A stretch of 64,000 nt of DNA from an uncultured Acidobacteriota bacterium (GTDB lineage: Bacteria; Acidobacteriota; UBA4820; DSQY01): positions 242,525 through 306,524 of the forward strand of contig CAVYWK010000022.1 of assembly GCA_963772255.1 (NCBI GenBank). The letters are read 5' to 3'. Below the pieces are notes generated by a model. That model was not told the DNA's origin, made no database searches, and saw nothing but the letters and a program-made list of their open reading frames with translations. The translations under genes and the position numbers were made by a program. Below, piece by piece: positions 28,192-37,824 of this stretch (the first letter of the stretch is position 1; every line of letters begins with the position of its first letter).

Positions 28192-28527
28192 TCAGCGTTT
28201 GTGGGGCCTGGGGTAGGCCTTGAGCGCCCAGAGGAGTTCGCGTGCCTCCCCCTGGAGGGAGGCGGAGAGCTTGTCGCCGGCATCCAGGCTGAGGATGGCC
28301 TCCTGGAAGGCGGCCAACCGGCATGGATTCTGGAGCGGGTGGGGGGCCGGGATTCCCCAGTCGCAGGCGGCGCACGACTCGTCACATCCGATGGCCCGGA
28401 GGGCCTCGGGCAAGTTCATCTGGCGCATGTGGTCCTGGAGGGAGCCCAGAGAGCTGAGTTTCTTCGTGTGGACGCACTCCTCCAGGAGCGAGGCCACTTC
28501 CTTGAGCCATTCCTGCGTGGACTTCAC
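28192..28527 (-). CDS. Hypothetical 111-aa protein with Cx3Cx2C-x13-C (paralogue of 37489-37824)
   Basis: RBS gggagg + GTG. Aligns without gaps to the second copy. Confidence 0.8.
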   Translation of the reverse strand: MKSTQEWLKEVASLLEECVHTKKLSSLGSLQDHMRQMNLPEALRAIGCDESCAACDWGIPAPHPLQNPCRLAAFQEAILSLDAGDKLSASLQGEARELLWALKAYPRPHKR

Positions 28528-28651: not shown

Positions 28652-29899
28652 ATGAAGGAGAAGGACCTCTCCCGGCGAGGGTTCCTGGGGATGGCCGCAC
28701 GGTACGGGTCCGTCCTGGGGGGGGTGGGTGCGCTCCTTTCCAGCCCCGAGTTGCTCCGGCTCCTGGGGTGCGACCCCCTGGATCCGTCCGCGGAGCCCGT
28801 CGACGACATCATCCGGCGGTCTCCTGTGGCAAGGTACTGGACATCGCCCGCAACCCTCGCCCCCGACTGCGGGGCCTGTCATTCTGCGGCGGAACTGGCC
28901 AAGGGCTCCAGGCACACCCACAAGACCCGCGCGGTGAAGTGCCTCCTCTGCGCCCACGGCTGCCTCATCGCCGAGGGGGAACGCGGGCGGTGCCGCGCGC
29001 GCATGAACCTCCGGGGGGAACTGCGCTCCCTGGTCTACGGGCGACCCATGGCCGAGCACGTGGACCCCATCGAGAAGAAGCCGTTCTACCACTTTCTACC
29101 CGGCGCGCAGGCGTACTCCCTGGCCACGTCGGGGTGCCCGCTGCGCTGCAAATTTTGCCAGAACTGGGTCATCAGCCAGGCCCGGCCCGAGGACTACGAC
29201 GCGCCGTTCTGTCCCGCCCCGGCCATGGCGAACCGGGCCAGGGGCCGCGGTGCGCCCGTGCTGGCCTTCACCTACAACGAGCCCACGGTGTTTATCGAGT
29301 ACCTCACGGACATCGCCCGAGCCGCGAGGCCACAGGGGTTGCGGTCGGTGCTCATCTCCTGCGGTTTCATGAACGAGGGACCGCTCAAGGAGATGACCGG
29401 CGTGCTCGATGCCATCAAGATCGACCTGAAGGGATTCTCCCCCAAGTTCTACAGGGAGGTTTGCGGCGCCGAGCTGGCCCCCGTCCTTCGGAGCATCAAG
29501 CAGGTCGCACGGTCGGGCTGCCACCTGGAGATCGTCAACCTCGTGGTGCCCACGCTCAACGACTCGGACACGATGATGACCGAACTGATCAAGTGGATCG
29601 CCGGCGAAACGGGCCCCGACACCCCCGTGCACTTCACGCGCTTCCACCCCGACTACCAGCTCATGAATCTTCCCCCCACGCCCGTGGCCACGCTGGAGAG
29701 GGCCCGAGATGCGGCCATGGGAGCGGGACTGCACTATGCCTACGTGGGCAACGTGCCGGGTCACCCCGGGAACCATACCTACTGCCCCAAGTGCAACATG
29801 GCGGTCATCGAGCGCTCGGGGATGTTTGTCACCGCCATGAGACTCAAGGGCGGGGCCTGTCCCGCGTGCGGTACCAAGATTCCCGGAGTCTGGGTCTAG
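28652..29899 (+). CDS. amrS: AmmeMemoRadiSam radical SAM enzyme with twin-arginine leader
   Basis: SRRGFLG leader, CLLCAHGC..RC, DPIEKKPFYHF, GCPLRCKFCQN, TYNEP, HFTRFHPDY and YVGNV. Confidence 0.92.
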   Translation: MKEKDLSRRGFLGMAARYGSVLGGVGALLSSPELLRLLGCDPLDPSAEPVDDIIRRSPVARYWTSPATLAPDCGACHSAAELAKGSRHTHKTRAVKCLLCAHGCLIAEGERGRCRARMNLRGELRSLVYGRPMAEHVDPIEKKPFYHFLPGAQAYSLATSGCPLRCKFCQNWVISQARPEDYDAPFCPAPAMANRARGRGAPVLAFTYNEPTVFIEYLTDIARAARPQGLRSVLISCGFMNEGPLKEMTGVLDAIKIDLKGFSPKFYREVCGAELAPVLRSIKQVARSGCHLEIVNLVVPTLNDSDTMMTELIKWIAGETGPDTPVHFTRFHPDYQLMNLPPTPVATLERARDAAMGAGLHYAYVGNVPGHPGNHTYCPKCNMAVIERSGMFVTAMRLKGGACPACGTKIPGVWV

Positions 29900-30001
29900 C
29901 GGTCACCGCCAGGGCACCGGACGCGAAGAGATCCACTCGGTCTACCGGACAAAAGGCGGGGAACCGGGCACGAAGCGAAAGAGGCAGATGAGGAGAACCT
30001 C

Positions 30002-31555
30002 ATGAAAAGGCTCTTGATGCCTGGCAAGACCACCTTCGCCTCCGCGCTTCTGGTCACCATGGTGTCTGGGTGGTTCATCTTATCTCCGTCGGATGTCGCG
30101 TCGGAGCCGGTGGACGCCATCGTGCGGCCGCCGGCGGTGGCGGGCAAGTTCTACCCCCAGGACGGGAAAAAACTCCGGTCCGCCGTGGAGGCGTATCTCG
30201 CCGATGCTCTGCCGCCCAAGGGCGAGCAACCCCTGGCCCTGGTGGCGCCCCATGCGGGATACATCTATTCGGGCCAAGTTGCGGCGGATGCCTTCAAGCA
30301 GGCGGCCGGGTATGAGATCGACCTGGTGGTCATCCTCGGGACGAACCACACCGTGCCGCCCTTCGATTCGGTCTCCGTCTTTCAAGGACGAGGCTACGCA
30401 ACCCCGCTTGGCGTGGCGATGACGGACCAGCCGGTGGCCCAGGCGCTCCTGGCGAGCGGGTTCGTCTACAGCCCCGAGGCCCACGCGGCGGAGCATTCGG
30501 AAGAGGTCCAGGTGCCCTTCGTTCAGGTGCTGTTCCCGAAAGCGAAAATCGTGACGGCCATCGTGGGGCGGCAAGACCTGACCCTGGCCACACGGTTCGG
30601 TCAGGCGCTGGCGAGGGTGATCAAGGGTCGAAAGGCGCTCGTCGTGGCGTCTTCGGATCTTTCCCACTATCCGCCCTACGATGAGGCGGCGGCGGCGGAC
30701 AGGGCCACCCTGATGGCGGTGGCGTCTCTGGACCCCAAGGCCGCCGCGGAATCCATCGCTCGGCAGATGAGAACCGGCCGCCCCGGGCTGGAGACCTGCG
30801 CCTGCGGCGAGGGCGCGATCCTCGCGGCCATGGTGGCGGCCAAGGCCATGGGCGCCACCCGGGGCACGGTTCTGAGCTACGCAAATTCCGGTGATACGGC
30901 CATCGGCGAGCGCGACCGCGTGGTGGGCTACGGGGCGGTGGTCTTCACCGCGGGCCCCGGAGGGACCGACACGGCTGCACTGGATGTGCCGCGGGTCGAC
31001 CGCGATGCCCAGCTCTCCGAGGCCGACAAACTGGTCCTGCTGAAGATCGCGCGCTCCACCGTGGAGCGGTATCTCACCACGGGTACGCTCCCCCTCCCCA
31101 GGGCCTCGACCCCCGCACTCCGGGCGAAGCAGGGGGCGTTTGTCACCCTCAAGAAGCACGGCGATCTCCGGGGTTGCATCGGTCACATGGCGGAGGACAC
31201 GCCCCTGGCCCAGGTCGTCTCTCGCATGGCCCTCGCGGCGGCCTTCGAGGACACGCGGTTTCCGCCCGTGCGCTCCGAAGAGCTCGCCTCTTTGGAGGTG
31301 GAGATCTCGGTCCTCACCCCGCTGTCCCCCGTTCCGGGGCCGGGCGCCGTGGTGGTGGGGCGAGACGGCGTGGTGGTTCGAAAGGCGGGGCGCAGTGCGG
31401 TGTTCCTGCCGCAAGTGGCACCCGAGCAGGGCTGGAGCCGGGACGAGCTTCTCGACCACCTCTGCGAGAAGGCGGGCCTGCCCCGCGACTGCTGGCGCGG
31501 GGGCTGTGAGCTCCTCACGTTCCGCGCCATCGTTTTCGAGGAGAAGAAGAAATAA
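30002..31555 (+). CDS. amrBA: AmmeMemoRadiSam protein B (MEMO1-like) - protein A (AMMECR1-like) fusion with N-terminal signal/anchor
   Basis: RPPAVAGKFYP, PHAGYIYSG, EHSEEVQ, SSDLSHY and CG for MEMO. GAFVTL..LRGCIG, DTRF, EISVL and FLPQV for AMMECR1. Confidence 0.92.
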   Translation: MKRLLMPGKTTFASALLVTMVSGWFILSPSDVASEPVDAIVRPPAVAGKFYPQDGKKLRSAVEAYLADALPPKGEQPLALVAPHAGYIYSGQVAADAFKQAAGYEIDLVVILGTNHTVPPFDSVSVFQGRGYATPLGVAMTDQPVAQALLASGFVYSPEAHAAEHSEEVQVPFVQVLFPKAKIVTAIVGRQDLTLATRFGQALARVIKGRKALVVASSDLSHYPPYDEAAAADRATLMAVASLDPKAAAESIARQMRTGRPGLETCACGEGAILAAMVAAKAMGATRGTVLSYANSGDTAIGERDRVVGYGAVVFTAGPGGTDTAALDVPRVDRDAQLSEADKLVLLKIARSTVERYLTTGTLPLPRASTPALRAKQGAFVTLKKHGDLRGCIGHMAEDTPLAQVVSRMALAAAFEDTRFPPVRSEELASLEVEISVLTPLSPVPGPGAVVVGRDGVVVRKAGRSAVFLPQVAPEQGWSRDELLDHLCEKAGLPRDCWRGGCELLTFRAIVFEEKKK

Positions 31556-31666
31556 GACATCACATCCGAGGCCGAAAGAACTCCAGGGAGGAACCGGACA
31601 TCCTCAAGGAGAACAGATTCCCATCCTGGCGCGCGCGGTGAGGTTTCTTTTCTCGGGTGGCGGACG

Positions 31667-33802
31667 ATGCTGTGGCTGGTGGCAGTGGGGCTCGTGACCC
31701 TTTGGGGGCAAGTGCTGCTCCTGAGGGAACTCCTGGTGGCTTTCTACGGCAACGACCTGGTCTACATCGTCGCCCTGGGCGGCCTCATGCTGTTCGCGGG
31801 GCTCGGCGCCCTTCTGGAGCGAAGACTGGGCCGCCACTCCGGAGCGAAGGTGCCCGCGCTCCTCATCGCCTTTGCGGTGGCCCTGCCCGTCCTTCTCGTG
31901 ATCCTCCGCGCGCTGGGGGTCCTGCTCGGCGGGACACCCGGCGCCGAACTCCCCCTGGGCCATCAGTTCCTGGCCCTGGGTCTCGTGCTCGCGCCCTACG
32001 GAATCCTGGCGGGGCTCCTTTTTCAGGGCGCGGCCACGCGCTATCTGAAAGCGGGCGGGACACTGGCGGGCGCCTATGCCACCGAGAGCTCCGGCGCCCT
32101 CGCGGGGGGACTTCTGGCCACGGTCACGGCGTTCCTGGGAATTTCCTGTTTCGCGGGAACGCTCCTGTGCGCGCTCGCGGCGGCTTGCGCGGCCTGCGTA
32201 CCTTGGACCGGCCGGCCACGCTGGCTCGCGGGGGTTGCGGCGCCGGTCATCCTCCTTCTCATGGCCGGATTGGCGCTCTCTCCGGGGCTCGACCGGAGCC
32301 TGACCGCGCTCAGCCATCCGGATCTTCGTGCCGCGGTGGACACGCCCTACGGCAGGACGGTGGTGGCGGGGGGCCTCGGGCAGGTGACGGTTTTTCACAA
32401 CGGCACCCTGGTCAGCGAGAGCCAGGGGACATCCTCGGAGGAATTCGTCCATCTGGCCGCATTGGAATGCGAGCTGCCTCGCCGGGTGTTGATTCTCGGG
32501 GGTACGTCGGAGGGACTCGCGGCCAGGGCCCTGGAACATGGTCCGCAACGCGTGGACCTGGTCGAGATGGACCGCGGCGCAGTGGACATCGAGAGCGGCT
32601 TCCTTCCGGAGAGGGACCGGGCGGCCCTCGCGGACGCGCGCGTGAAGCGTTCTTTCAAAGATCCCCGGCGGTTCCTGGCGGGAGCGGGCTCCTACGACCT
32701 CATCCTGTCGGCGGCGCCGGAACCCGGGTCGGGGGAGTCCAACCGCCTTTTCACCCGCGAGTTCTTTTCGCTATGCCGGGAGCACCTGTCCGCAGAGGGC
32801 GTGCTGGCCCTGCGCCTGCCCTCCTCCGAAAACCTCTGGACGAAGGCCCTCGCTTCGCGGAACGCCAGCGTGCTGGTCGCCCTGCGCGCCGTCTTCCCCC
32901 GGACCCTCGTCCTTCCAGGCACATCCGATCTGGTGCTCGCGTCTCCACGGCCCCTGGTGCGCGACCCCCGGATCCTCGCGGAAAGATGGAGAGCGCGAGG
33001 GATTGCGGCGCGCCTGGTGAACCCCGAGTACATCGCCTACCTCCTGACCAACGATCGTATCGCGGCGGCGGAATCGGCGTTGGCGCGGACCCAGGCTCCA
33101 GAAAATGCCGACGCGCGCCCGGCGTGCTACCCGTTCACGATGCTCCTGTGGCTCTCGAAGTTCTTCCCCGCCCTCGGGAATGTGTCAGCGCCGGGGACCC
33201 TGCCCTGGTACGGATTCGCCCTTCTCCCTGGTCTTCTCGCCGGCGCCGCGCTGCCGGCCCGCCGGCGCAACACGCTCCGCCGAGCCCTCTTCGTGGGTTC
33301 CGCCGGGTTCGCGGGAATGCTTCTGGAGGGCGCGCTCTTGCTTGCGTATCAGGCGCGGCGAGGCGCGCTATACCAGGACCTCGGCCTCCTCCTGACCTGC
33401 TTCATGGGCGGCCTGTGCCTCGGGGCTTGGGGCATGGGCCGCGTGGGGCGCAGGAAGGGGTCGGGTCTTGCAATAGCCCTCTGCACCTCCTCGGTGGGGG
33501 CGGTGTGCGCGTGGGCCATCCAGACGGGAGGGGCGGCGGGCCGGATGGGAACCGGGCTCCTTCTCGCGGCGGCCGGCGCCTGTGTGGGCGCCGCCTTCGC
33601 GTGGGCGGGGGACCAGGGCCAGGCCAACCCGTCAGCCCTGTCGGATCCCTCGCGGGGAATGGCCCCCCTCTACGCGGCGGATCTCTGGGGAGGATGCCTG
33701 GGCGCCCTGCTGGGAAGCTTGGTCTTCCTGCCCTTCTCGGGCCTCGCGTCCAGCGCCGGGCTTGTCTCACTCGTGGGGCTCGCCATGCTCCTGCTGGTTT
33801 GA
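31667..33802 (+). CDS. Multi-TM membrane protein with spermidine-synthase-like (Rossmann MTase-fold) domain
   Basis: Two TM blocks flank VLILGG, VDLVEMD, DPRRFL, YDLIL and LFTREFF. Confidence 0.8.
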   Translation: MLWLVAVGLVTLWGQVLLLRELLVAFYGNDLVYIVALGGLMLFAGLGALLERRLGRHSGAKVPALLIAFAVALPVLLVILRALGVLLGGTPGAELPLGHQFLALGLVLAPYGILAGLLFQGAATRYLKAGGTLAGAYATESSGALAGGLLATVTAFLGISCFAGTLLCALAAACAACVPWTGRPRWLAGVAAPVILLLMAGLALSPGLDRSLTALSHPDLRAAVDTPYGRTVVAGGLGQVTVFHNGTLVSESQGTSSEEFVHLAALECELPRRVLILGGTSEGLAARALEHGPQRVDLVEMDRGAVDIESGFLPERDRAALADARVKRSFKDPRRFLAGAGSYDLILSAAPEPGSGESNRLFTREFFSLCREHLSAEGVLALRLPSSENLWTKALASRNASVLVALRAVFPRTLVLPGTSDLVLASPRPLVRDPRILAERWRARGIAARLVNPEYIAYLLTNDRIAAAESALARTQAPENADARPACYPFTMLLWLSKFFPALGNVSAPGTLPWYGFALLPGLLAGAALPARRRNTLRRALFVGSAGFAGMLLEGALLLAYQARRGALYQDLGLLLTCFMGGLCLGAWGMGRVGRRKGSGLAIALCTSSVGAVCAWAIQTGGAAGRMGTGLLLAAAGACVGAAFAWAGDQGQANPSALSDPSRGMAPLYAADLWGGCLGALLGSLVFLPFSGLASSAGLVSLVGLAMLLLV

Positions 33803-33882
33803 GTGGTCGGTCTCAGTCGACGATGAAGACGCGGGCGCCCCGATCGGAGATGGCGCTGTGGGGGTTGGCTTCGTCGTCGGGT

Positions 33883-35173
33883 TCAGGTTTTGGCGAGGAG
33901 TGCTTCGAGGTAGCGCGATTTCACCTGCCGCGAGGCCAGCGCCTGCTTGATCGGCGGCATCTTGAGGAGGACGCCCAGGATGGCGGCGACGGCCCGGTGC
34001 CCGTAGGAGGCCTGGCCGTCCACGAGGAGTTCTGCGAAACATCCCCGCTCGATGGCCATGAGGACGACCTTGTGCGAGGTGTTGAGGGGGGTGAGGACGC
34101 GCTCCGCCCTGGCGCGGAGGTGGATCGCCTCCTCCGGGCAGGCCTGGACGCAGACGCCGCAGCCCAGGCACCGGTCCTCCTCCAGCTTGGCCGCCTTGGC
34201 GGCCGGTCGCCGGGCGTTGTGGGCGGAGACGAGTTCCAGGGCATCCACGGGGCACGCCGAGACGCACTTCCCGCACCCGTTGCAGGCGGCTCCCGTCAAG
34301 TTCGGGCAGGAAGTTGGTCGTGTGGACGGGACGCATGAAGCCGAAGCGCCGGGCGGCGATCAAGGCTTCGCAGCAGCACCCGCAGCAGTTGCAGATGAAG
34401 CTCACGCCTTCCCTCACGTTCTCCCCAAATTGCACGAGCCCCGTCTCCCTCGCCGCCGCCAGCAGATCCAGGCACTCCGCCGCCTCCACCCTCCTCGCCG
34501 CGCCGTGCCGAGTGAGGGAGGAGGCGGCCGTGCCGAAGGTCATGCAGATGTCCAGGGGGGCGTCGCAGGCCCGGTCCAGGTGGGCCATCTTGTGCCGGCA
34601 GTAGCAGAGGCCCACGCCGATGGCCGCGGCCCCCCGCACGACTTCGCTGGCCCGTTCGTAGTCCAGGACCTGGAGGGGGCCCCTGGCTTCAGCCTTGGGG
34701 TTCACGAGGGCCGTTTCGTTGACGAAAACCCGCCCGAGCTGCGTCTCACCTCGGGCGAAGAGCTCTCGGACGAAATCTTCCTCCACGTTGAGGTACTGGT
34801 AGAAGAGCTCGGAGAGGGCTCTCTGGTCCACGTCGCCTCTCACGCGCATGAGGGAGAACTCGAAAAAACCCGCCATGGGGGGCGGGAGGACATACCGCGT
34901 CTCCCCGTCCTCGGGGTAGTCCAGGAGGAGGGCCCGGTCCGCCAGGGCATCGAGAATCTTCCGCGCGTCCCCTTCGGGCAGGCGCCAGAGCGACGCGGCC
35001 CGCTTGGCCGTAAAGGGCCGGATGGGAAGCTGCGCCACCAGGGCGGCCTCGCGCTCGCTCAGCAGAATCTTCAGAATCTTGAAGAGCAACTCGGAGGGGG
35101 GCGCGCCCTGGGGAAATCGATTGAGCCGATCCACCAGGTCGTCGTAGCTCCCCTTCAGCGTTTGATGGGCCAT
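33883..35173 (-). pseudogene. 4Fe-4S dicluster protein interrupted by a +1 frameshift (may be a sequence error)
   Basis: CYCR and ICNCCGCCC are in one frame; two CxxCxxCxxxCP ferredoxin motifs are in the next. Deleting one base of the 3-base run at 34292-94 gives a 429-aa ORF. Confidence 0.8.
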
Positions 35174-35266
35174 GGCCGGTGCGCTCCCGAACCCCAAGAA
35201 TACACCCAACGGGGCGCGCTAAACTTCTGCCGGTTTCGGGCGTACCATGGCACGGGAGGGAGAGCC

Positions 35267-36487
35267 ATGAGCCGAGCGCGCTACGCATCGCTGAAACCCG
35301 TCTTGGAACCGGACCGCCGGGATTTTCTGAAGACCCTGGGCGTGGCCGCCGCGGGGGGCTTGGTTTTGGGAGTGCCCGATTTCGCGGACGAGCAACCTCC
35401 CGCCAAGCCGGCGCCTCCACCCGCGGAGGTGGAGACCAACATCGCCGACTTCATGAAGGTCCCCAAGGGCAAGTTCGCCCTCCCCGGCCCCTTTCCCGGC
35501 AAGGTGGTCCAGGTCACCGATGCCAAGTCCATGAAGGACCGTAACGTGGACCCCAAAGTGGTGTCCAAGATGTTTGAGAAGGGGCTCACCGAACTCACGG
35601 GGCTGTCGCCCCGGAAGAGCTTCGAACTGCTCTTCACCAAGGATGACGTGGTGGGGATCAAGGTCAACCCCGTGGGCGCCCCCCTCATCAACACCACCCC
35701 CGCGCTCGCCCTGGCCGTGGTTTCTTGGCTCGAAGCCAACGGCCTGCCCCGGAAGAACATCATCATCTGGGACCGCTTCGACGACATGCTCAAGGAGGCC
35801 GGGTTCACGGCCGAGCGCTTCCCCGGCGTCCGCATCGAGTCCCTCCAGACCATGGCCGAGGACGGAAAACCCTGGAAGAACGACAAGGGTGAACACCCCA
35901 GCGCGGCCAATTTCGACAAGGACGCCTACTACTTCGCCAAGGGCGTCATGGGCGCGGGCGTGAAGGGCTACGAGAACGACGACGCCTACGCCAACCAGCA
36001 CGTCTTCACCGGAGAGTATTCCTACTTCGGCAAACTCGTCACCGGCGGCCTCACCAAAATCATCAACCTGGCGGCCTTCAAGAACGCCGGCAACGGCATC
36101 TCCATGGCCACGAAGAACCTGGGCTACGGCGCCATCTGCAACACCGGCCGCCTCCACGCCCCCCTCTTTTTCAAGGTGTGCACGGAGGTCTGCGCCGCGC
36201 CCTGGGTGAGGGACAAGCTCGTCCTGAACGTCACCGACGGCATCCGCGGCCAGTACGACGGCGGGCCCATGGGCAACGAGCAGTTCTACTTCCCGAACCA
36301 TTCGCTCTACTTCGCCACCGACCCCTTCGCGCTGGACCGGGTCTGCCACGACCAGATCGTGTCCAAGCGAAAGGCCATGGGCGTCAAGGTCAACGACCAT
36401 CCGCGCTTCACCGATTACCTGGACTATGCCCAGAAACTCGGACTCGGCGTGGCCGACCCCATGAAAATCAAGCTCTACAAAGTGTGA
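35267..36487 (+). CDS. DUF362-like protein with twin-arginine signal
   Basis: DRRDFLK leader, VGIKVN, IIIWDR, MATKNLGYG, FATDPFALD and LGLG. Confidence 0.78.
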   Translation: MSRARYASLKPVLEPDRRDFLKTLGVAAAGGLVLGVPDFADEQPPAKPAPPPAEVETNIADFMKVPKGKFALPGPFPGKVVQVTDAKSMKDRNVDPKVVSKMFEKGLTELTGLSPRKSFELLFTKDDVVGIKVNPVGAPLINTTPALALAVVSWLEANGLPRKNIIIWDRFDDMLKEAGFTAERFPGVRIESLQTMAEDGKPWKNDKGEHPSAANFDKDAYYFAKGVMGAGVKGYENDDAYANQHVFTGEYSYFGKLVTGGLTKIINLAAFKNAGNGISMATKNLGYGAICNTGRLHAPLFFKVCTEVCAAPWVRDKLVLNVTDGIRGQYDGGPMGNEQFYFPNHSLYFATDPFALDRVCHDQIVSKRKAMGVKVNDHPRFTDYLDYAQKLGLGVADPMKIKLYKV

Positions 36488-36498
36488 GGCCCAACGCC

Positions 36499-37392
36499 AT
36501 GAGATGCCTCGGGGTGCTGACGGCGTTGCTTTTCTTCGGCGTGGCCGCCTCGGCCGCCGGTGATGCGGCCCTCCTGCCCGCAAACGGGTTCGCGCCGGGT
36601 TGGACGCAAGATGGGCAGGCGAAAATCTATGAGGGAGAGGCCCTCTACGACCACATCGACGGAGGCGGGGAAGCATTCCTGGAACTGGGCTTCGAGGCCT
36701 GCATCGTCCAGCGGTATCGGAAGGCCCCGAACCAATTCACCTTCGAACTCTACCGGATGAAAGACACCGCCGCGGCCCTCGGAGTGTACCTCACGAACTG
36801 CGGTCGCGAGACACCCGACGAGTCCTTCGCGGAGCGCCACACGGTAGGCCGCAACCAACTCCTGGCACAGAAGGGCCGGTACTACCTGGTAGCCACGAGC
36901 CCGGAGGCCTCTCCGGGCATGCCGCAGGCCCTCCTGGCCGCGGCCAGAGCCGTGACCGAACGGCTCCCTCAGACTGAACCGCCGGCCATCTTGGCGCTCC
37001 TGCCCAGAGAGGGTCTCATTCCCCATTCTGAGCGTATCGTGCGGGGCTCCATAGGCTTGCAGGCGTTCGTGACCCTCGGTGAGGGGGACGTGCTCCTGCT
37101 CGATCGCAGGGCCACGGCCGTGGCGGGGGACTATCAGGGAAAGGGTGGCGGACAGCGGACGCTGATCGTGGCCGAGTATGCCTCGGATCAAGAGGCGTCT
37201 GCCGCCCTGCGACACCTCACCACCAACCTGGATCCGACGCTGTCCGTTCTCTTTGCGGGCGACCGCGTTCTGGCGTTGAAGGATAGCAAGGGCCGCTTCG
37301 GTGAGGCCACCCTTCAGGGTGCCCGCCTGACGATCCAGCTCGGTTTGGAGACGCCACCCTCCCAACCCCCACAGCGAGGGTCCGCGCGCTGA
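36499..37392 (+). CDS. Secreted hypothetical protein (DUF6599-like)
   Basis: Sec signal (..AASA-AG) and LYDHIDGGGEAFLELGF..YRM..AALGVY pattern recalled for this family. Confidence 0.6.
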   Translation: MRCLGVLTALLFFGVAASAAGDAALLPANGFAPGWTQDGQAKIYEGEALYDHIDGGGEAFLELGFEACIVQRYRKAPNQFTFELYRMKDTAAALGVYLTNCGRETPDESFAERHTVGRNQLLAQKGRYYLVATSPEASPGMPQALLAAARAVTERLPQTEPPAILALLPREGLIPHSERIVRGSIGLQAFVTLGEGDVLLLDRRATAVAGDYQGKGGGQRTLIVAEYASDQEASAALRHLTTNLDPTLSVLFAGDRVLALKDSKGRFGEATLQGARLTIQLGLETPPSQPPQRGSAR

Positions 37393-37488: not shown

Positions 37489-37824
37489 TCAGTGCTTCCG
37501 GTGCACGGGTAGGCTGTCCAAGATCTCCAGGAGGGCCGCCGTGTCCCGCGGGGCGGGGGTCTCGCGGTTGGGGATCGCCTGCAGATCCTCGATAGCCTCC
37601 TGAAGCGCCACGAGTCTGCAGGTCCCGCGAAGCGGGTGCCCTCCAAGAAAGCCCCAGGAGCATTCCGAGCAGTGGTCCCCGCAACCCAGATCGGTCTCGG
37701 CCTGGCTCATGTCGATTTTCGTAATGTGGTCCTGGAGGAAGTCGGCCAAGTTGCGTCGCCCGCCCCAACGCGCCGTCTTCAGATATTTTCTCGCCTGCTG
37801 TATCCAGCGCTCGGTTTCATTCAC
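37489..37824 (-). CDS. Hypothetical 111-aa protein with Cx3Cx2C-x13-C (paralogue of 28192-28527)
   Basis: RBS aggagg + GTG. Aligns without gaps to the first copy. Confidence 0.8.
   Translation of the reverse strand: MNETERWIQQARKYLKTARWGGRRNLADFLQDHITKIDMSQAETDLGCGDHCSECSWGFLGGHPLRGTCRLVALQEAIEDLQAIPNRETPAPRDTAALLEILDSLPVHRKH

What the first reader, a model, noticed from the sequence alone, without database searches (positions are those of the whole stretch)
28652..37392. Apparently extracytoplasmic AmmeMemoRadiSam system with membrane MTase-fold, Fe-S and DUF362 partners
Seen: AmrS (Tat), AmrB-AmrA fusion (signal/anchor), multi-TM spermidine-synthase-like protein, a cytoplasmic multi-Cys ferredoxin-like protein, DUF362 (Tat) and a secreted DUF6599-like protein. 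Known: the amrS/A/B trio is widespread with no established substrate and has been predicted to modify nucleic acid bases or cofactors. Inference: a periplasm-facing variant, in which the membrane protein could supply or recycle SAM-derived metabolites.
Basis: partly seen in the sequence, partly recalled or inferred. Interest (0 to 1): 0.7.

Follow-up and report, generated by a model that had tools for sequence, protein, structure and literature searches.

The report
Exported radical-SAM (AmmeMemoRadiSam) membrane module

Summary
The genes are real and the domain calls are correct. The conserved unit is smaller than proposed. It has three co-oriented genes:
- AmrS, with a twin-arginine leader and an invariant CxxCH insert.
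- An AmrB-AmrA fusion with a Sec-type leader.
- A 14-TM protein whose spermidine-synthase-like domain is predicted to face the periplasm.

This trio recurs in about 40 loci from at least 10 phyla. Export-type leaders mark one deep branch of the AmrS tree. Relatives are fused, with no intervening TM helix, to FMN_bind, CBM_11 or beta-propeller domains. Exported placement is therefore well supported but not proven.

The three extra partners fare differently:
- The Fe-S gene lies on the minus strand and is frameshifted in this assembly. Its orthologues elsewhere are unlinked, so it is a bystander.
- DUF362 followed by DUF6599 is a robust exported two-gene module of its own.
- Orthologues of that pair are unlinked to AmrS outside this genus, although paralogues sit inside Amr operons of other Acidobacteriota.

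How SAM and electrons reach the enzyme is inference. The candidates are the membrane protein for SAM and a haem at CxxCH for electrons. I found no paper describing an exported radical SAM enzyme. Notes from this scan have reported the same system in many other genomes.

The parts
28652..29899 (+). amrS: radical SAM enzyme of the exported, CxxCH-bearing clade (415 aa)
   Evidence: TIGR04337 338.7 bits against a cut-off of 220. The CX3CX2C motif is C162/C166/C169, invariant in 34 relatives. The AlphaFold model has pLDDT 82.5 and its best PDB match is PFL-AE 3C8F.
28652..28747 (+). Twin-arginine-type leader of AmrS (residues 1-32: SRRGFLG plus h-region)
   Evidence: R8 and R9 are invariant in alignment A1. 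An RR motif was found by pattern in 112 of the 120 best homologues, several of the rest being N-terminally cut. Residues 8-29 are modelled as a helix. TIGR01409 scores 13.8 bits, below the 16.7 cut-off.
28868..28882 (+). CGACH (C73-x2-C76-H77): invariant CxxCH motif in the N-terminal insert, followed by the nearly invariant H90
   Evidence: C73, C76 and H77 are invariant and H90 is at least 90% conserved. The motif defines one clade of the AmrS tree (support 96). A few nested members have lost it (L025, L028, L037).
30002..31555 (+). amrB-amrA fusion (Memo plus AMMECR1) with an N-terminal Sec-type signal or anchor (517 aa)
   Evidence: PF01875 at residues 44-313 and PF01871 at 347-512. TIGR04336 and TIGR04335 score above their cut-offs. 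48 of 49 evaluable orthologues have a hydrophobic leader, 13 with a lipobox-like motif.
31667..33802 (+). 14-TM membrane protein: TM1-6, TM7, spermidine-synthase-like domain (about residues 205-480, predicted periplasmic), TM8, TM9-14
   Evidence: The AlphaFold model has pLDDT 92.8 and pTM 0.93. The soluble domain matches SpeE structures with TM-score about 0.75. TM1-6 is homologous to TM9-14 (hhalign 97.3%, E 2.6e-11). Loops on the modelled cytoplasmic side carry 15.8 K+R per sequence against 3.7 on the other side, over 46 homologues. The gene sits next to AmrS in 52 loci.
35267..36487 (+). Tat-signal DUF362 protein (406 aa): possible accessory, membership unproven
   Evidence: PF04015, PF10518 and TIGR01409 match above their cut-offs. 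Orthologues are followed by DUF6599 in 24 of about 26 loci but are unlinked to AmrS outside the genus. Paralogues lie directly upstream of AmrS in about 18 loci.
36499..37392 (+). Secreted DUF6599 protein (297 aa), translationally close partner of DUF362
   Evidence: PF20244 92.4 bits. The Sec-type leader was judged by inspection. The pairing with DUF362 is conserved.
33886..35173 (-). Cys-rich 2x[4Fe-4S] protein gene, frameshifted here: judged an unrelated neighbour
   Evidence: The reading frame switches near 34290. Intact copies exist on C26, in L083 and in relatives' contigs. Fer4 domains are seen in the intact copy. Orthologues elsewhere are unlinked.

Best explanation
The functional unit is a three-gene, four-domain AmmeMemoRadiSam module that works at the outer face of the cytoplasmic membrane.

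Proposed mechanism:
1. AmrS folds and receives its Fe-S clusters in the cytoplasm. It is then exported by the Tat pathway. No conserved cleavage site is evident, so it may stay tethered by its leader.
2. The AmrB-AmrA (Memo-AMMECR1) fusion is exported by Sec, and as a lipoprotein in many relatives.
3. The third gene encodes two homologous 6-TM halves. These are joined by a TM7 / spermidine-synthase-like domain / TM8 insert that places the Rossmann domain in the periplasm.
4. That domain keeps its nucleotide-binding residues and lacks the aminopropyl-transfer Asp pair. I infer that it binds an adenosyl compound (SAM, dcSAM, MTA or 5'-deoxyadenosine). The TM part would move that compound across the membrane, feeding or clearing AmrS.
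5. The invariant CxxCH...H insert of AmrS is inferred to be the electron entry point. The likeliest form is a bis-His haem c attached after export.
6. The substrate is an unknown envelope or membrane molecule.

Status of each step:
- Shown: domain identities, conservation of the leaders, gene linkage and the topology statistics.
- Inferred: actual export, SAM supply, haem and substrate.

The neighbours:
- DUF362-DUF6599 is a separate exported two-gene module that only this genus has next to the trio.
- The Fe-S gene is a bystander.
For: Leaders:
- RR was found by pattern in 112 of the 120 closest homologues, 63-97% identical, and R8/R9 are invariant in the 34-sequence alignment.
- Of 80 genome loci, 35 are Tat+CxxCH, 30 Tat-only, 5 Sec-like and about 6-9 leaderless.
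- On a tree of 201 AmrS cores, one branch (support 92) separates 112 rows from 83. Of the 112, 101 have an export-type leader or fusion. Of the 83, 77 are leaderless.

Independent domain evidence:
- AmrS relatives have a signal-anchor followed by FMN_bind (with the SGAT flavinylation motif), CBM_11 or a beta-propeller.
- No TM helix separates these domains from the radical SAM domain.

Partner proteins:
- 48 of 49 AmrB-AmrA fusions have a hydrophobic leader.
- The gene order amrS, amrBA, membrane gene is conserved in Acidobacteriota, Syntrophales, Calditrichota, KSB1, Latescibacterota, Ignavibacteria, Fibrobacterota, Eisenbacteria, Anaeromyxobacter and Anaerolineae.

Topology of the membrane protein:
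- It has a 7 + 7 helix layout around a SpeE fold.
- TM1-6 and TM9-14 are a parallel repeat.
- The K+R bias is 15.8 against 3.7.

Active site of the SpeE-like domain:
- G278, G279, G283, E300 and D332 are conserved.
- The catalytic D-x-x-D-P reads S-A-A-P-E-P.

Export and haem machinery:
- TatC is present in 30 of 30 genomes of the CxxCH class, and in 5 of 5 genomes of this genus.
- It is absent from 3 of 4 genomes whose AmrS has a Sec-like leader.
- Cytochrome c assembly genes are present in 30 of 30 CxxCH-class genomes and in this genome.
Against: - No experiment supports export. No signal-peptide predictor was available.
- The window's own AmrS leader is just under the TIGR01409 cut-off.
- TatC was not found in this MAG.
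- Neither SAM nor a low-potential reductant is known in the periplasm.
- A covalent haem on a Tat substrate would be unusual, because haem c is normally attached to unfolded Sec substrates.
- TatC and cytochrome c assembly genes are so common that their co-occurrence has little power (45 and 47 of 50 genomes).
- Nested lineages contradict a simple picture. Four Nitrospirota-type loci, plus L050 and L053, have leaderless AmrS. The four Nitrospirota-type loci pair it with a lipoprotein AmrB-AmrA.
- Some relatives are fused to NapH/NosR-like Fer4_5 or DsbD_2 TM domains, which may leave the radical SAM domain inside.
- A Sec-type leader on an Fe-S enzyme (5 loci) is hard to reconcile with export.
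- Model coordinates could not be inspected, so the topology rests on helix counts and charge bias.
Confidence: 0.62

Rival explanations
1. The whole 8.7-kb stretch is one system. AmrS, AmrB-AmrA, the membrane protein, the Fe-S protein, DUF362 and DUF6599 act together. The Fe-S protein would feed electrons from the cytoplasm, and DUF362/DUF6599 would be obligatory periplasmic partners.
For: - All the genes lie within 9 kb, and do so again in the 79%-identical relative L083.
- DUF362 has a Tat leader and DUF6599 a Sec leader.
- Paralogous DUF6599, DUF362, amrS, amrBA operons exist in Terriglobia-type loci. DUF362 is within 10 kb in 18 of 30 Tat-only loci.
- All 29 genomes with a match to the window's DUF362 (E 1e-30 or better; most with the DUF6599 pair) carry AmrS, against 141 of 201 in the phylum sample.
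Against: - None of the 35 CxxCH-class loci outside this genus has DUF362, DUF6599 or the Fe-S gene within 10 kb.
- Fe-S orthologues in 26 loci of other families have none of these genes beside them.
- Orthologues of the DUF362-DUF6599 pair lie on other contigs or 280-890 kb from AmrS.
- In L083 a C11 peptidase gene and a methyltransferase gene are inserted between the parts.
- The Fe-S gene is on the opposite strand and frameshifted here.
- The phyletic 29 of 29 is not corrected for relatedness.
Confidence: 0.15
2. The proteins are membrane-associated but the radical SAM chemistry stays in the cytoplasm. The N-terminal segments would act as tethers or be non-functional relics. The membrane protein and the exported AmrB-AmrA would receive a product made inside.
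For: - SAM, flavodoxin or ferredoxin, and Fe-S assembly are all cytoplasmic (established knowledge).
- Nested lineages have leaderless AmrS; four of them pair it with a lipoprotein AmrB-AmrA and the same membrane protein (L047, L054, L069, L070).
- Fusions to Fer4_5 (NapH/NosR-like) and DsbD_2 TM domains could deliver electrons across the membrane from or to a cytoplasmic radical SAM domain.
- Five loci have Sec-like leaders, which are incompatible with export of a folded Fe-S protein.
Against: - A single N-terminal helix preceded by RR places the C-terminal domain outside, by the positive-inside rule.
- The RR pair is invariant over a large, old clade.
- FMN_bind, CBM_11 and beta-propeller fusions have no TM helix before the radical SAM domain.
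- The SpeE-like domain, also a SAM-type fold, is predicted to be outside.
- Sec-like leaders occur mostly in genomes without TatC: 3 of 4.
Confidence: 0.13
3. AmrS is exported but does not turn over SAM outside. It leaves the cytoplasm with one SAM bound and acts once, as an activase that installs a radical or modification on AmrB-AmrA. Alternatively, it has a non-radical redox role. The membrane protein then has another job, such as handling a polyamine or a lipid.
For: - AmrS is closest to glycyl-radical activases in sequence and fold, and these act on a protein partner.
- Tat exports proteins with bound cofactors (established knowledge).
- This would remove the need for a periplasmic SAM pool.
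Against: - No glycyl-radical-type partner is known for Amr systems.
- The strictly co-inherited membrane protein keeps its adenosyl-binding residues, which is hard to explain if no adenosyl compound is handled outside.
- Electron-entry modules (CxxCH, FMN_bind) suggest repeated reduction.
Confidence: 0.1

Closest known systems
Canonical AmmeMemoRadiSam system (NCBIfam TIGR04337 AmrS, TIGR04336 protein B/Memo, TIGR04335 protein A/AMMECR1)
   Same: All three families are matched above their curated cut-offs. The genes are adjacent and co-oriented. The radical SAM CX3CX2C motif, the N- and C-terminal Cys clusters, the Memo His/Asp/Cys motifs and the AMMECR1 LRGCIG motif are all present.
   Different: Canonical members have no leader: 77 of 83 rows on the other side of the tree split. 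Here AmrS has a Tat-type leader plus a CxxCH insert. AmrB and AmrA are fused behind a Sec-type leader. A fourth conserved component, the 14-TM SpeE-like protein, is present. The function of the canonical system is itself unknown. From memory, Burroughs et al. 2019 (J Biol Chem) predicted nucleotide-base or isoprenoid modification. That paper could not be read here.
Pyruvate formate-lyase activating enzyme (PFL-AE; PDB 3C8F) and other glycyl-radical activases
   Same: These are the best structural and second-best sequence matches of the AmrS core.
   Different: Scores are far below the family cut-offs (about 49 bits against 174-232). No glycyl-radical enzyme partner is in the module. PFL-AE is cytoplasmic.
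Tat-exported Fe-S proteins that remain anchored by an uncleaved signal (Rieske protein; hydrogenase small subunits)
   Same: An RR motif is followed by a moderately hydrophobic helix on a protein that must fold around Fe-S clusters before export. No conserved AxA cleavage site is seen.
   Different: None of those is a radical SAM enzyme, and none needs a nucleotide co-substrate outside. Export was not tested here.
Membrane-bound polyamine aminopropyltransferases (NCBIfam PRK03612 type) and soluble SpeE
   Same: The N-terminal TM block plus SpeE domain aligns with PRK03612 (89 bits). The soluble domain has the full SpeE fold, with TM-score about 0.75 to 1UIR.
   Different: Scores are far below the cut-offs (89 against 472 and 66 against 250). 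The catalytic D-x-x-D-P is not kept. A second 7-TM block follows the domain. The domain is predicted to be periplasmic.
Extracytoplasmic electron-transfer modules (ApbE-flavinylated FMN_bind domains; NosR/NapH-type membrane polyferredoxins)
   Same: Relatives of this AmrS are fused to exactly these modules (P0129, P0130, P0137, P0138, P0152). This suggests that electrons reach AmrS at or across the membrane.
   Different: The window's AmrS has none of these domains. It carries the CxxCH insert instead.
DUF362 (PF04015; Pfam clan CL0471 with the LarA N-terminal domain, PMC11770544) and DUF6599 (PF20244)
   Same: Both families are matched above their cut-offs. The RR leader and K/H/D/N/R residues are conserved in DUF362 copies next to AmrS.
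   Different: No function is known. There are no Cys motifs, so it is not an Fe-S protein. The window's copy belongs to a subfamily that is not linked to AmrS outside this genus.

Membership tests
AmmeMemoRadiSam system | Radical SAM protein scoring above the TIGR04337 cut-off with a CX3CX2C motif | tested here: met
   338.7 bits against a cut-off of 220. C162-x3-C166-x2-C169 is invariant.
AmmeMemoRadiSam system | Adjacent Memo-family protein B (TIGR04336) and AMMECR1-family protein A (TIGR04335) | tested here: met
   243.6 bits (cut-off 26) and 180.6 bits (cut-off 99), fused in one ORF 102 bases downstream of amrS.
AmmeMemoRadiSam system | Leaderless, cytoplasmic proteins, as in the canonical members | tested here: not met
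   AmrS has an 87-residue N-terminal extension with RR and AmrB-AmrA has a 40-residue leader. The window falls in the leader-bearing half of the tree.
Tat (twin-arginine) substrates | S/T-R-R-x-F-L-K-type motif followed by a hydrophobic h-region | tested here: met
   SRRGFLG plus a helix at residues 8-29. R8 and R9 are invariant in 34 of 34 relatives.
Tat (twin-arginine) substrates | Score above the TIGR01409 / PF10518 cut-off | tested here: not met
   AmrS scores 13.8 bits against 16.7, and 20 of 34 relatives match at E<=1. DUF362 does pass, with 21.9 and 23.7 bits.
Tat (twin-arginine) substrates | TatC encoded in the genome | tested here: inconclusive
   Not found in this 86%-complete MAG. 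Present in 5 of 5 genomes of the genus and in 30 of 30 CxxCH-class genomes.
Tat (twin-arginine) substrates | Tat-dependent translocation shown experimentally | not testable with these tools
   Needs reporter fusions or fractionation.
c-type cytochrome (covalent haem) | CxxCH motif with a candidate distal ligand | tested here: met
   C73, C76 and H77 are invariant and H90 is at least 90% conserved.
c-type cytochrome (covalent haem) | Cytochrome c maturation genes in the genome | tested here: met
   Two PF01578 matches in this genome. Present in 30 of 30 CxxCH-class genomes, but also in 47 of 50 genomes overall, so the test has low power.
c-type cytochrome (covalent haem) | Export of the unfolded apoprotein by Sec, and haem actually attached | tested here: not met
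   The leader is of the Tat type. Haem attachment cannot be tested here.
Spermidine synthase / aminopropyltransferase | SpeE fold | tested here: met
   Foldseek match to 1UIR, 7XIF and 3O4F with E 1e-12 to 1e-10 and TM-score about 0.75.
Spermidine synthase / aminopropyltransferase | Score above the curated speE cut-offs | tested here: not met
   TIGR00417 65.8 against 249.55. PRK03612 89.3 against 472.
Spermidine synthase / aminopropyltransferase | Catalytic Asp pair (D-x-x-D-P) that binds and deprotonates the amine | tested here: not met
   It aligns to S-A-A-P-E-P. These positions are variable in 46 homologues.
DUF362 (PF04015) / DUF6599 (PF20244) | Score above the Pfam gathering cut-off | tested here: met
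   43.4 against 24 and 92.4 against 27.

The most novel reading that the evidence does not exclude
A complete radical SAM catalytic cycle runs outside the cytoplasm in many anaerobic lineages. AmrS is exported folded by Tat. It is re-reduced through a haem c attached at its CxxCH insert, or through FMN_bind or polyferredoxin modules in sister clades. It is fed with SAM, or cleared of 5'-deoxyadenosine, by a dedicated 6+6-TM transporter. That transporter carries a catalytically inactive periplasmic spermidine-synthase-like domain as the adenosyl-binding station. Memo-AMMECR1 then completes the modification of an envelope lipid or polymer.
Probability: 0.3. Interest if true: 0.9.

Novelty: new variant of a known kind. 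Interest (0 to 1): 0.72.

Why it matters
Radical SAM enzymes are treated as strictly cytoplasmic. They need Fe-S assembly, SAM and a low-potential reductant, and they are oxygen-labile.

A large, old, multi-phylum clade built for the outer face of the membrane would change that view. It would imply an unknown route for SAM, or an adenosyl product, across the membrane. It would also imply periplasmic low-potential electron delivery to a radical SAM cluster.

It gives the long-unexplained Memo/AMMECR1/radical SAM triad a place of action, the cell envelope, which narrows the search for its substrate. MEMO1 and AMMECR1 are human disease-linked proteins with unsettled biochemistry.

It also assigns a testable role to the widespread membrane-fused 'spermidine synthase' genes, which annotation pipelines currently mislabel.

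Tried and rejected
Literature:
- Searches for AmmeMemoRadiSam, AMMECR1+Memo+radical SAM, radical SAM+twin-arginine+periplasmic, flavinylation+extracytosolic+radical SAM, five 'exported/periplasmic radical SAM' phrases, and AMMECR1+periplasm found nothing on an exported system.
- The key comparative paper (Burroughs et al. 2019, PMC6664185) is not held. Prior mention there cannot be excluded.
- The DUF362 hits in PMC12423673 were really DUF3623.

Links tested and rejected:
- Fe-S protein as a partner.
- Orthologous DUF362-DUF6599 linkage to AmrS beyond the genus.

Analyses that gave nothing:
- No further conserved neighbour emerged from all-against-all clustering of ORFs in 80 loci. The remaining families were antisense shadow ORFs, a second DUF362 paralogue, ABC, PAS kinase, ADH, a response regulator, GT9 and an epimerase, in 9 loci or fewer each.
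- The promoter and terminator scan was uninformative.
- The source sequencing run is not indexed and only relatives' contigs were found.
- Model coordinates are not exposed. Cys/His distances around CxxCH and the position of the SpeE-like domain relative to the bundle could not be measured.
- Foldseek of the membrane protein returned only SpeE hits and no transporter match for the TM part.
- TatC and cytochrome c assembly co-occurrence tests were passed but have low power.

Considered and set aside:
- That the second AmrS hit in the genome (C26) is a paralogue. It is a near-identical copy of the whole locus.

Full report
**What is there**

The window is G000:C22:242525-306524. It comes from a 3.49-Mb MAG that is 86% complete and about 66% G+C. 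Its nearest named relatives are uncultured Acidobacteriota.

| Product | Coordinates | Evidence |
|---|---|---|
| AmrS | 28652-29899 (+) | TIGR04337 338.7 bits, cut-off 220 |
| AmrB-AmrA fusion | 30002-31555 (+) | TIGR04336 243.6 bits, TIGR04335 180.6 bits |
| Spermidine-synthase-like membrane protein, 711 aa | 31667-33802 (+) | PF01564 |
| DUF362 | 35267-36487 (+) | PF04015, Tat signal above cut-off |
| DUF6599 | 36499-37392 (+) | PF20244, Sec-type leader |

Two corrections apply:
- The ferredoxin-like gene (about 33886-35173) is on the minus strand. Its frame switches near 34290 in this assembly. Its two [4Fe-4S] motifs are seen only in the intact copy on contig C26.
- Contigs of relatives in four metagenomes, C26 and L083 are all intact at that place. 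The break is therefore either an assembly error or private to this strain.

C26 (11 kb) is a 90-99% identical copy of the whole locus. I read it as a strain variant binned into the MAG, not as a paralogue.

**The leaders are conserved features, not chance**

- The AmrS model match starts at residue 88. Upstream lie SRRGFLG, a hydrophobic stretch, a linker, and a conserved block APxARYWxS...CxxCH...H.
- A pattern search finds the RR motif in 112 of the 120 best homologues, which are 63-97% identical. Nearly all of them also carry CxxCH. Several of the eight without RR are N-terminally cut.
- In a 34-sequence alignment R8, R9, C73, C76 and H77 are invariant, and H90 is at least 90% conserved.
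- The window's own leader scores 13.8 bits on TIGR01409, against a cut-off of 16.7. The argument therefore rests on family conservation, not on this one score.
- A scan of species-representative genomes returned 80 loci. I classed 35 as Tat+CxxCH, 30 as Tat without the insert, 5 as Sec-like and about 6-9 as leaderless. Some of the leaderless calls are truncations.
- Among the 150 nearest representatives of 50%-identity clusters, 74 have no leader, at least 27 are Tat-like and 5 are Sec-like. The rest are fragments or fusions.
- On a FastTree of 201 AmrS cores one branch (support 92) separates 112 rows from 83 rows. Of the 112, 101 carry an export-type leader or fusion. Of the 83, 77 are leaderless. 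The CxxCH class forms a single clade with support 96.
- The AmrB-AmrA fusion carries a hydrophobic leader in 48 of 49 evaluable loci, and 13 of these look like lipoproteins.

**Independent support for an outside location**

- Some AmrS relatives consist of a signal-anchor, an FMN_bind domain with the SGAT flavinylation motif, and the radical SAM domain. No TM helix lies between these parts (P0129, P0138).
- Others have a leader followed by CBM_11 (P0140) or by a beta-propeller (P0136). One is TM-AmrS-Memo-AMMECR1 (P0134).
- These partner domains are typical of the cell exterior.
- TatC is present in 30 of 30 genomes of the CxxCH class and in 9 of 10 Tat-only genomes tested. It is missing from 3 of 4 genomes whose AmrS has a Sec-like leader.
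- TatC was not found in this MAG but is present in all five genomes of the genus.
- These co-occurrence tests have little power, because TatC is common.

**The fourth component**

- The membrane protein follows amrS-amrBA in the CxxCH-class loci wherever the contig is long enough. A more distant form (25-32% identity) sits beside AmrS in the other classes. In total it is present in 52 loci.
- Its AlphaFold model is confident, with pLDDT 92.8 and pTM 0.93. It shows seven helices, a SpeE fold at residues 220-474, an amphipathic helix, and seven more helices.
- The soluble part matches spermidine synthases with TM-score about 0.75.
- TM1-6 and TM9-14 are homologous (hhalign 97.3%, E 2.6e-11). The protein is therefore two parallel 6-TM halves joined by TM7, the domain, and TM8.
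- Over 46 homologues, the loops that this layout puts inside carry 15.8 K+R per sequence. The loops it puts outside carry 3.7.
- Both arguments place the SpeE-like domain in the periplasm.
- The domain keeps the glycine-rich loop, E300 and D332, which bind the nucleotide in SpeE. The catalytic D-x-x-D-P reads S-A-A-P-E-P and varies across the family.
- I conclude that it binds an adenosyl compound but is not an aminopropyltransferase.

**The other neighbours**

- *Fe-S protein.* In 200 genomes of the phylum it has orthologues at 59-80% identity in about 30. In the 26 loci outside this genus nothing from the cluster lies within 1.5 kb. In genomes that have both genes, it lies far from DUF362. 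It is a bystander.
- *DUF362 followed by DUF6599.* This pair is kept in 24 of about 26 orthologous loci, so it is a real two-gene exported module.
- Outside this genus the pair lies on other contigs or 280-890 kb from any AmrS.
- In the 79%-identical relative L083 a C11 peptidase gene and a methyltransferase gene are inserted between the parts.
- None of the 35 CxxCH-class loci has a DUF362 within 10 kb.
- Against that, a paralogous DUF362 (24-28% identical, RR leader at least 90% conserved) lies directly upstream of AmrS in about 18 of 30 Tat-only loci. DUF6599 often precedes it.
- All 29 genomes with a match to the window's DUF362 (E 1e-30 or better; most with the DUF6599 pair) have AmrS, against 141 of 201 in the phylum sample. 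This is not corrected for relatedness.
- I give about one chance in three that the window's pair works with the trio.

**How it probably works**

- Shown: the identities, the linkage, the conserved leaders and the topology statistics.
- Inferred from established Tat biology: AmrS is loaded with clusters inside and crosses folded.
- Inferred from the retained nucleotide-binding residues and the outside position: the membrane protein handles SAM or its adenosyl products.
- Inferred from the motif and from the electron-transfer modules fused to sister enzymes: the CxxCH...H block is the electron entry, most simply a bis-His haem c. Cytochrome c assembly genes are present here and in 30 of 30 CxxCH genomes, which does not discriminate.
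- The substrate is unknown. No further conserved neighbour gives a hint.

**What does not fit**

- Four Nitrospirota-type loci (L047, L054, L069, L070) have a leaderless AmrS beside a lipoprotein AmrB-AmrA and the membrane protein. L050 and L053 also have a leaderless AmrS.
- Fusions to NapH/NosR-like Fer4_5 and DsbD_2 TM domains could leave the radical SAM domain inside.
- Sec-like leaders are hard to reconcile with an Fe-S enzyme.
- These cases keep alive a rival in which the chemistry is split across the membrane.

**Comparison and novelty**

The module passes the membership tests of the AmmeMemoRadiSam families. It departs from the canonical system in location signals, in the AmrB-AmrA fusion, in the CxxCH insert and in the fourth gene.

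I found no paper on an exported radical SAM enzyme. The one paper most likely to mention it could not be read.

Notes from this scan already describe the same exported system in many other genomes. I read them after forming this view. They are not independent evidence, but they do mean this window is one more example.

This window adds three things:
- A CxxCH-class trio lying near a DUF362-DUF6599 pair.
- A test showing that this adjacency is genus-specific.
- The exclusion of the Fe-S gene.

Noticed in passing
window 33886-35173 (-), break near 34290: The Cys-rich 2x[4Fe-4S] protein gene has a +1 frameshift in this assembly. The copies on contig C26, in L083 and in relatives' contigs from four metagenomes are intact there. 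The break is an assembly error or a strain-private lesion.
   Followed up: partly
genome contig C26 (11,151 bases), whole length: C26 is a reverse-oriented second copy of window 28.6-39 kb. Protein identities vary: DUF362, DUF6599 and Cys111b 99%, AmrBA 96%, membrane protein 90%, Fe-S 89-93%. This looks like strain heterogeneity in the MAG, with mosaic divergence.
   Followed up: partly
window 28192-28527 (-) and 37489-37824 (-): Two 111-aa paralogues (34% identical) carry a G-C-x3-C-x2-C-x13/14-C motif and no leader, and match no Pfam or NCBIfam family. They bracket the region. One is kept upstream of amrS in L003 and L083, and none was found in more distant loci. They may be small zinc- or redox-sensing regulators.
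   Followed up: partly
proteins P0129, P0130, P0131, P0136, P0137, P0138, P0140, P0144, P0152 (other organisms): AmrS relatives are fused to FMN_bind, NapH/NosR-like Fer4_5 TM domains, DsbD_2, CBM_11 or beta-propellers. This is a set of alternative electron-entry or targeting modules for the same radical SAM core.
   Followed up: partly
loci L047, L054, L069, L070 (Nitrospirota/Thermodesulfovibrionales), L050, L053: These loci have a leaderless AmrS nested inside the leader-bearing clade. In the four Nitrospirota loci it still sits beside a lipoprotein-type AmrB-AmrA and the membrane protein. Export may be by hitch-hiking, or the system may be split across the membrane.
   Followed up: no
loci L064, L073, L074 (Omnitrophota, WOR-3, unclassified): AmrS has a Sec-like or anchor leader instead of RR in genomes where no TatC was found. 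The same is true of only 1 of about 40 RR-bearing genomes tested (L066).
   Followed up: partly
window 28790-28840 and 30101-30154: The stretches just after the two leaders resemble each other: AmrS AEPVDDIIRRSPVARYW and AmrB-AmrA SEPVDAIVRPPAVAGKFY. This may be chance, or a shared recognition or processing element.
   Followed up: no
genome C22:169919-170491 and C20:351864-352667 (outside the window): The same genome holds stand-alone AMMECR1 (42% identical) and Memo (34% identical) paralogues. Genomes of the same genus also carry a second AmrS (ORF of about 378 aa) that this MAG lacks.
   Followed up: no
locus L083 15244-16398 (-) and 18252-19316 (+): In a 79%-identical, otherwise syntenic relative, a Peptidase_C11 gene and a class I methyltransferase gene are inserted. 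The first lies between the membrane-protein gene and the Fe-S gene. The second lies between the Fe-S gene and DUF362.
   Followed up: no
loci L046, L048, L049, L058, L062, L063, L076, L079, L080: Terriglobia-type Amr loci carry a further, canonical DUF362 paralogue (PF04015 187 bits) downstream of the membrane-protein gene. This gives two or three DUF362 genes per locus.
   Followed up: no
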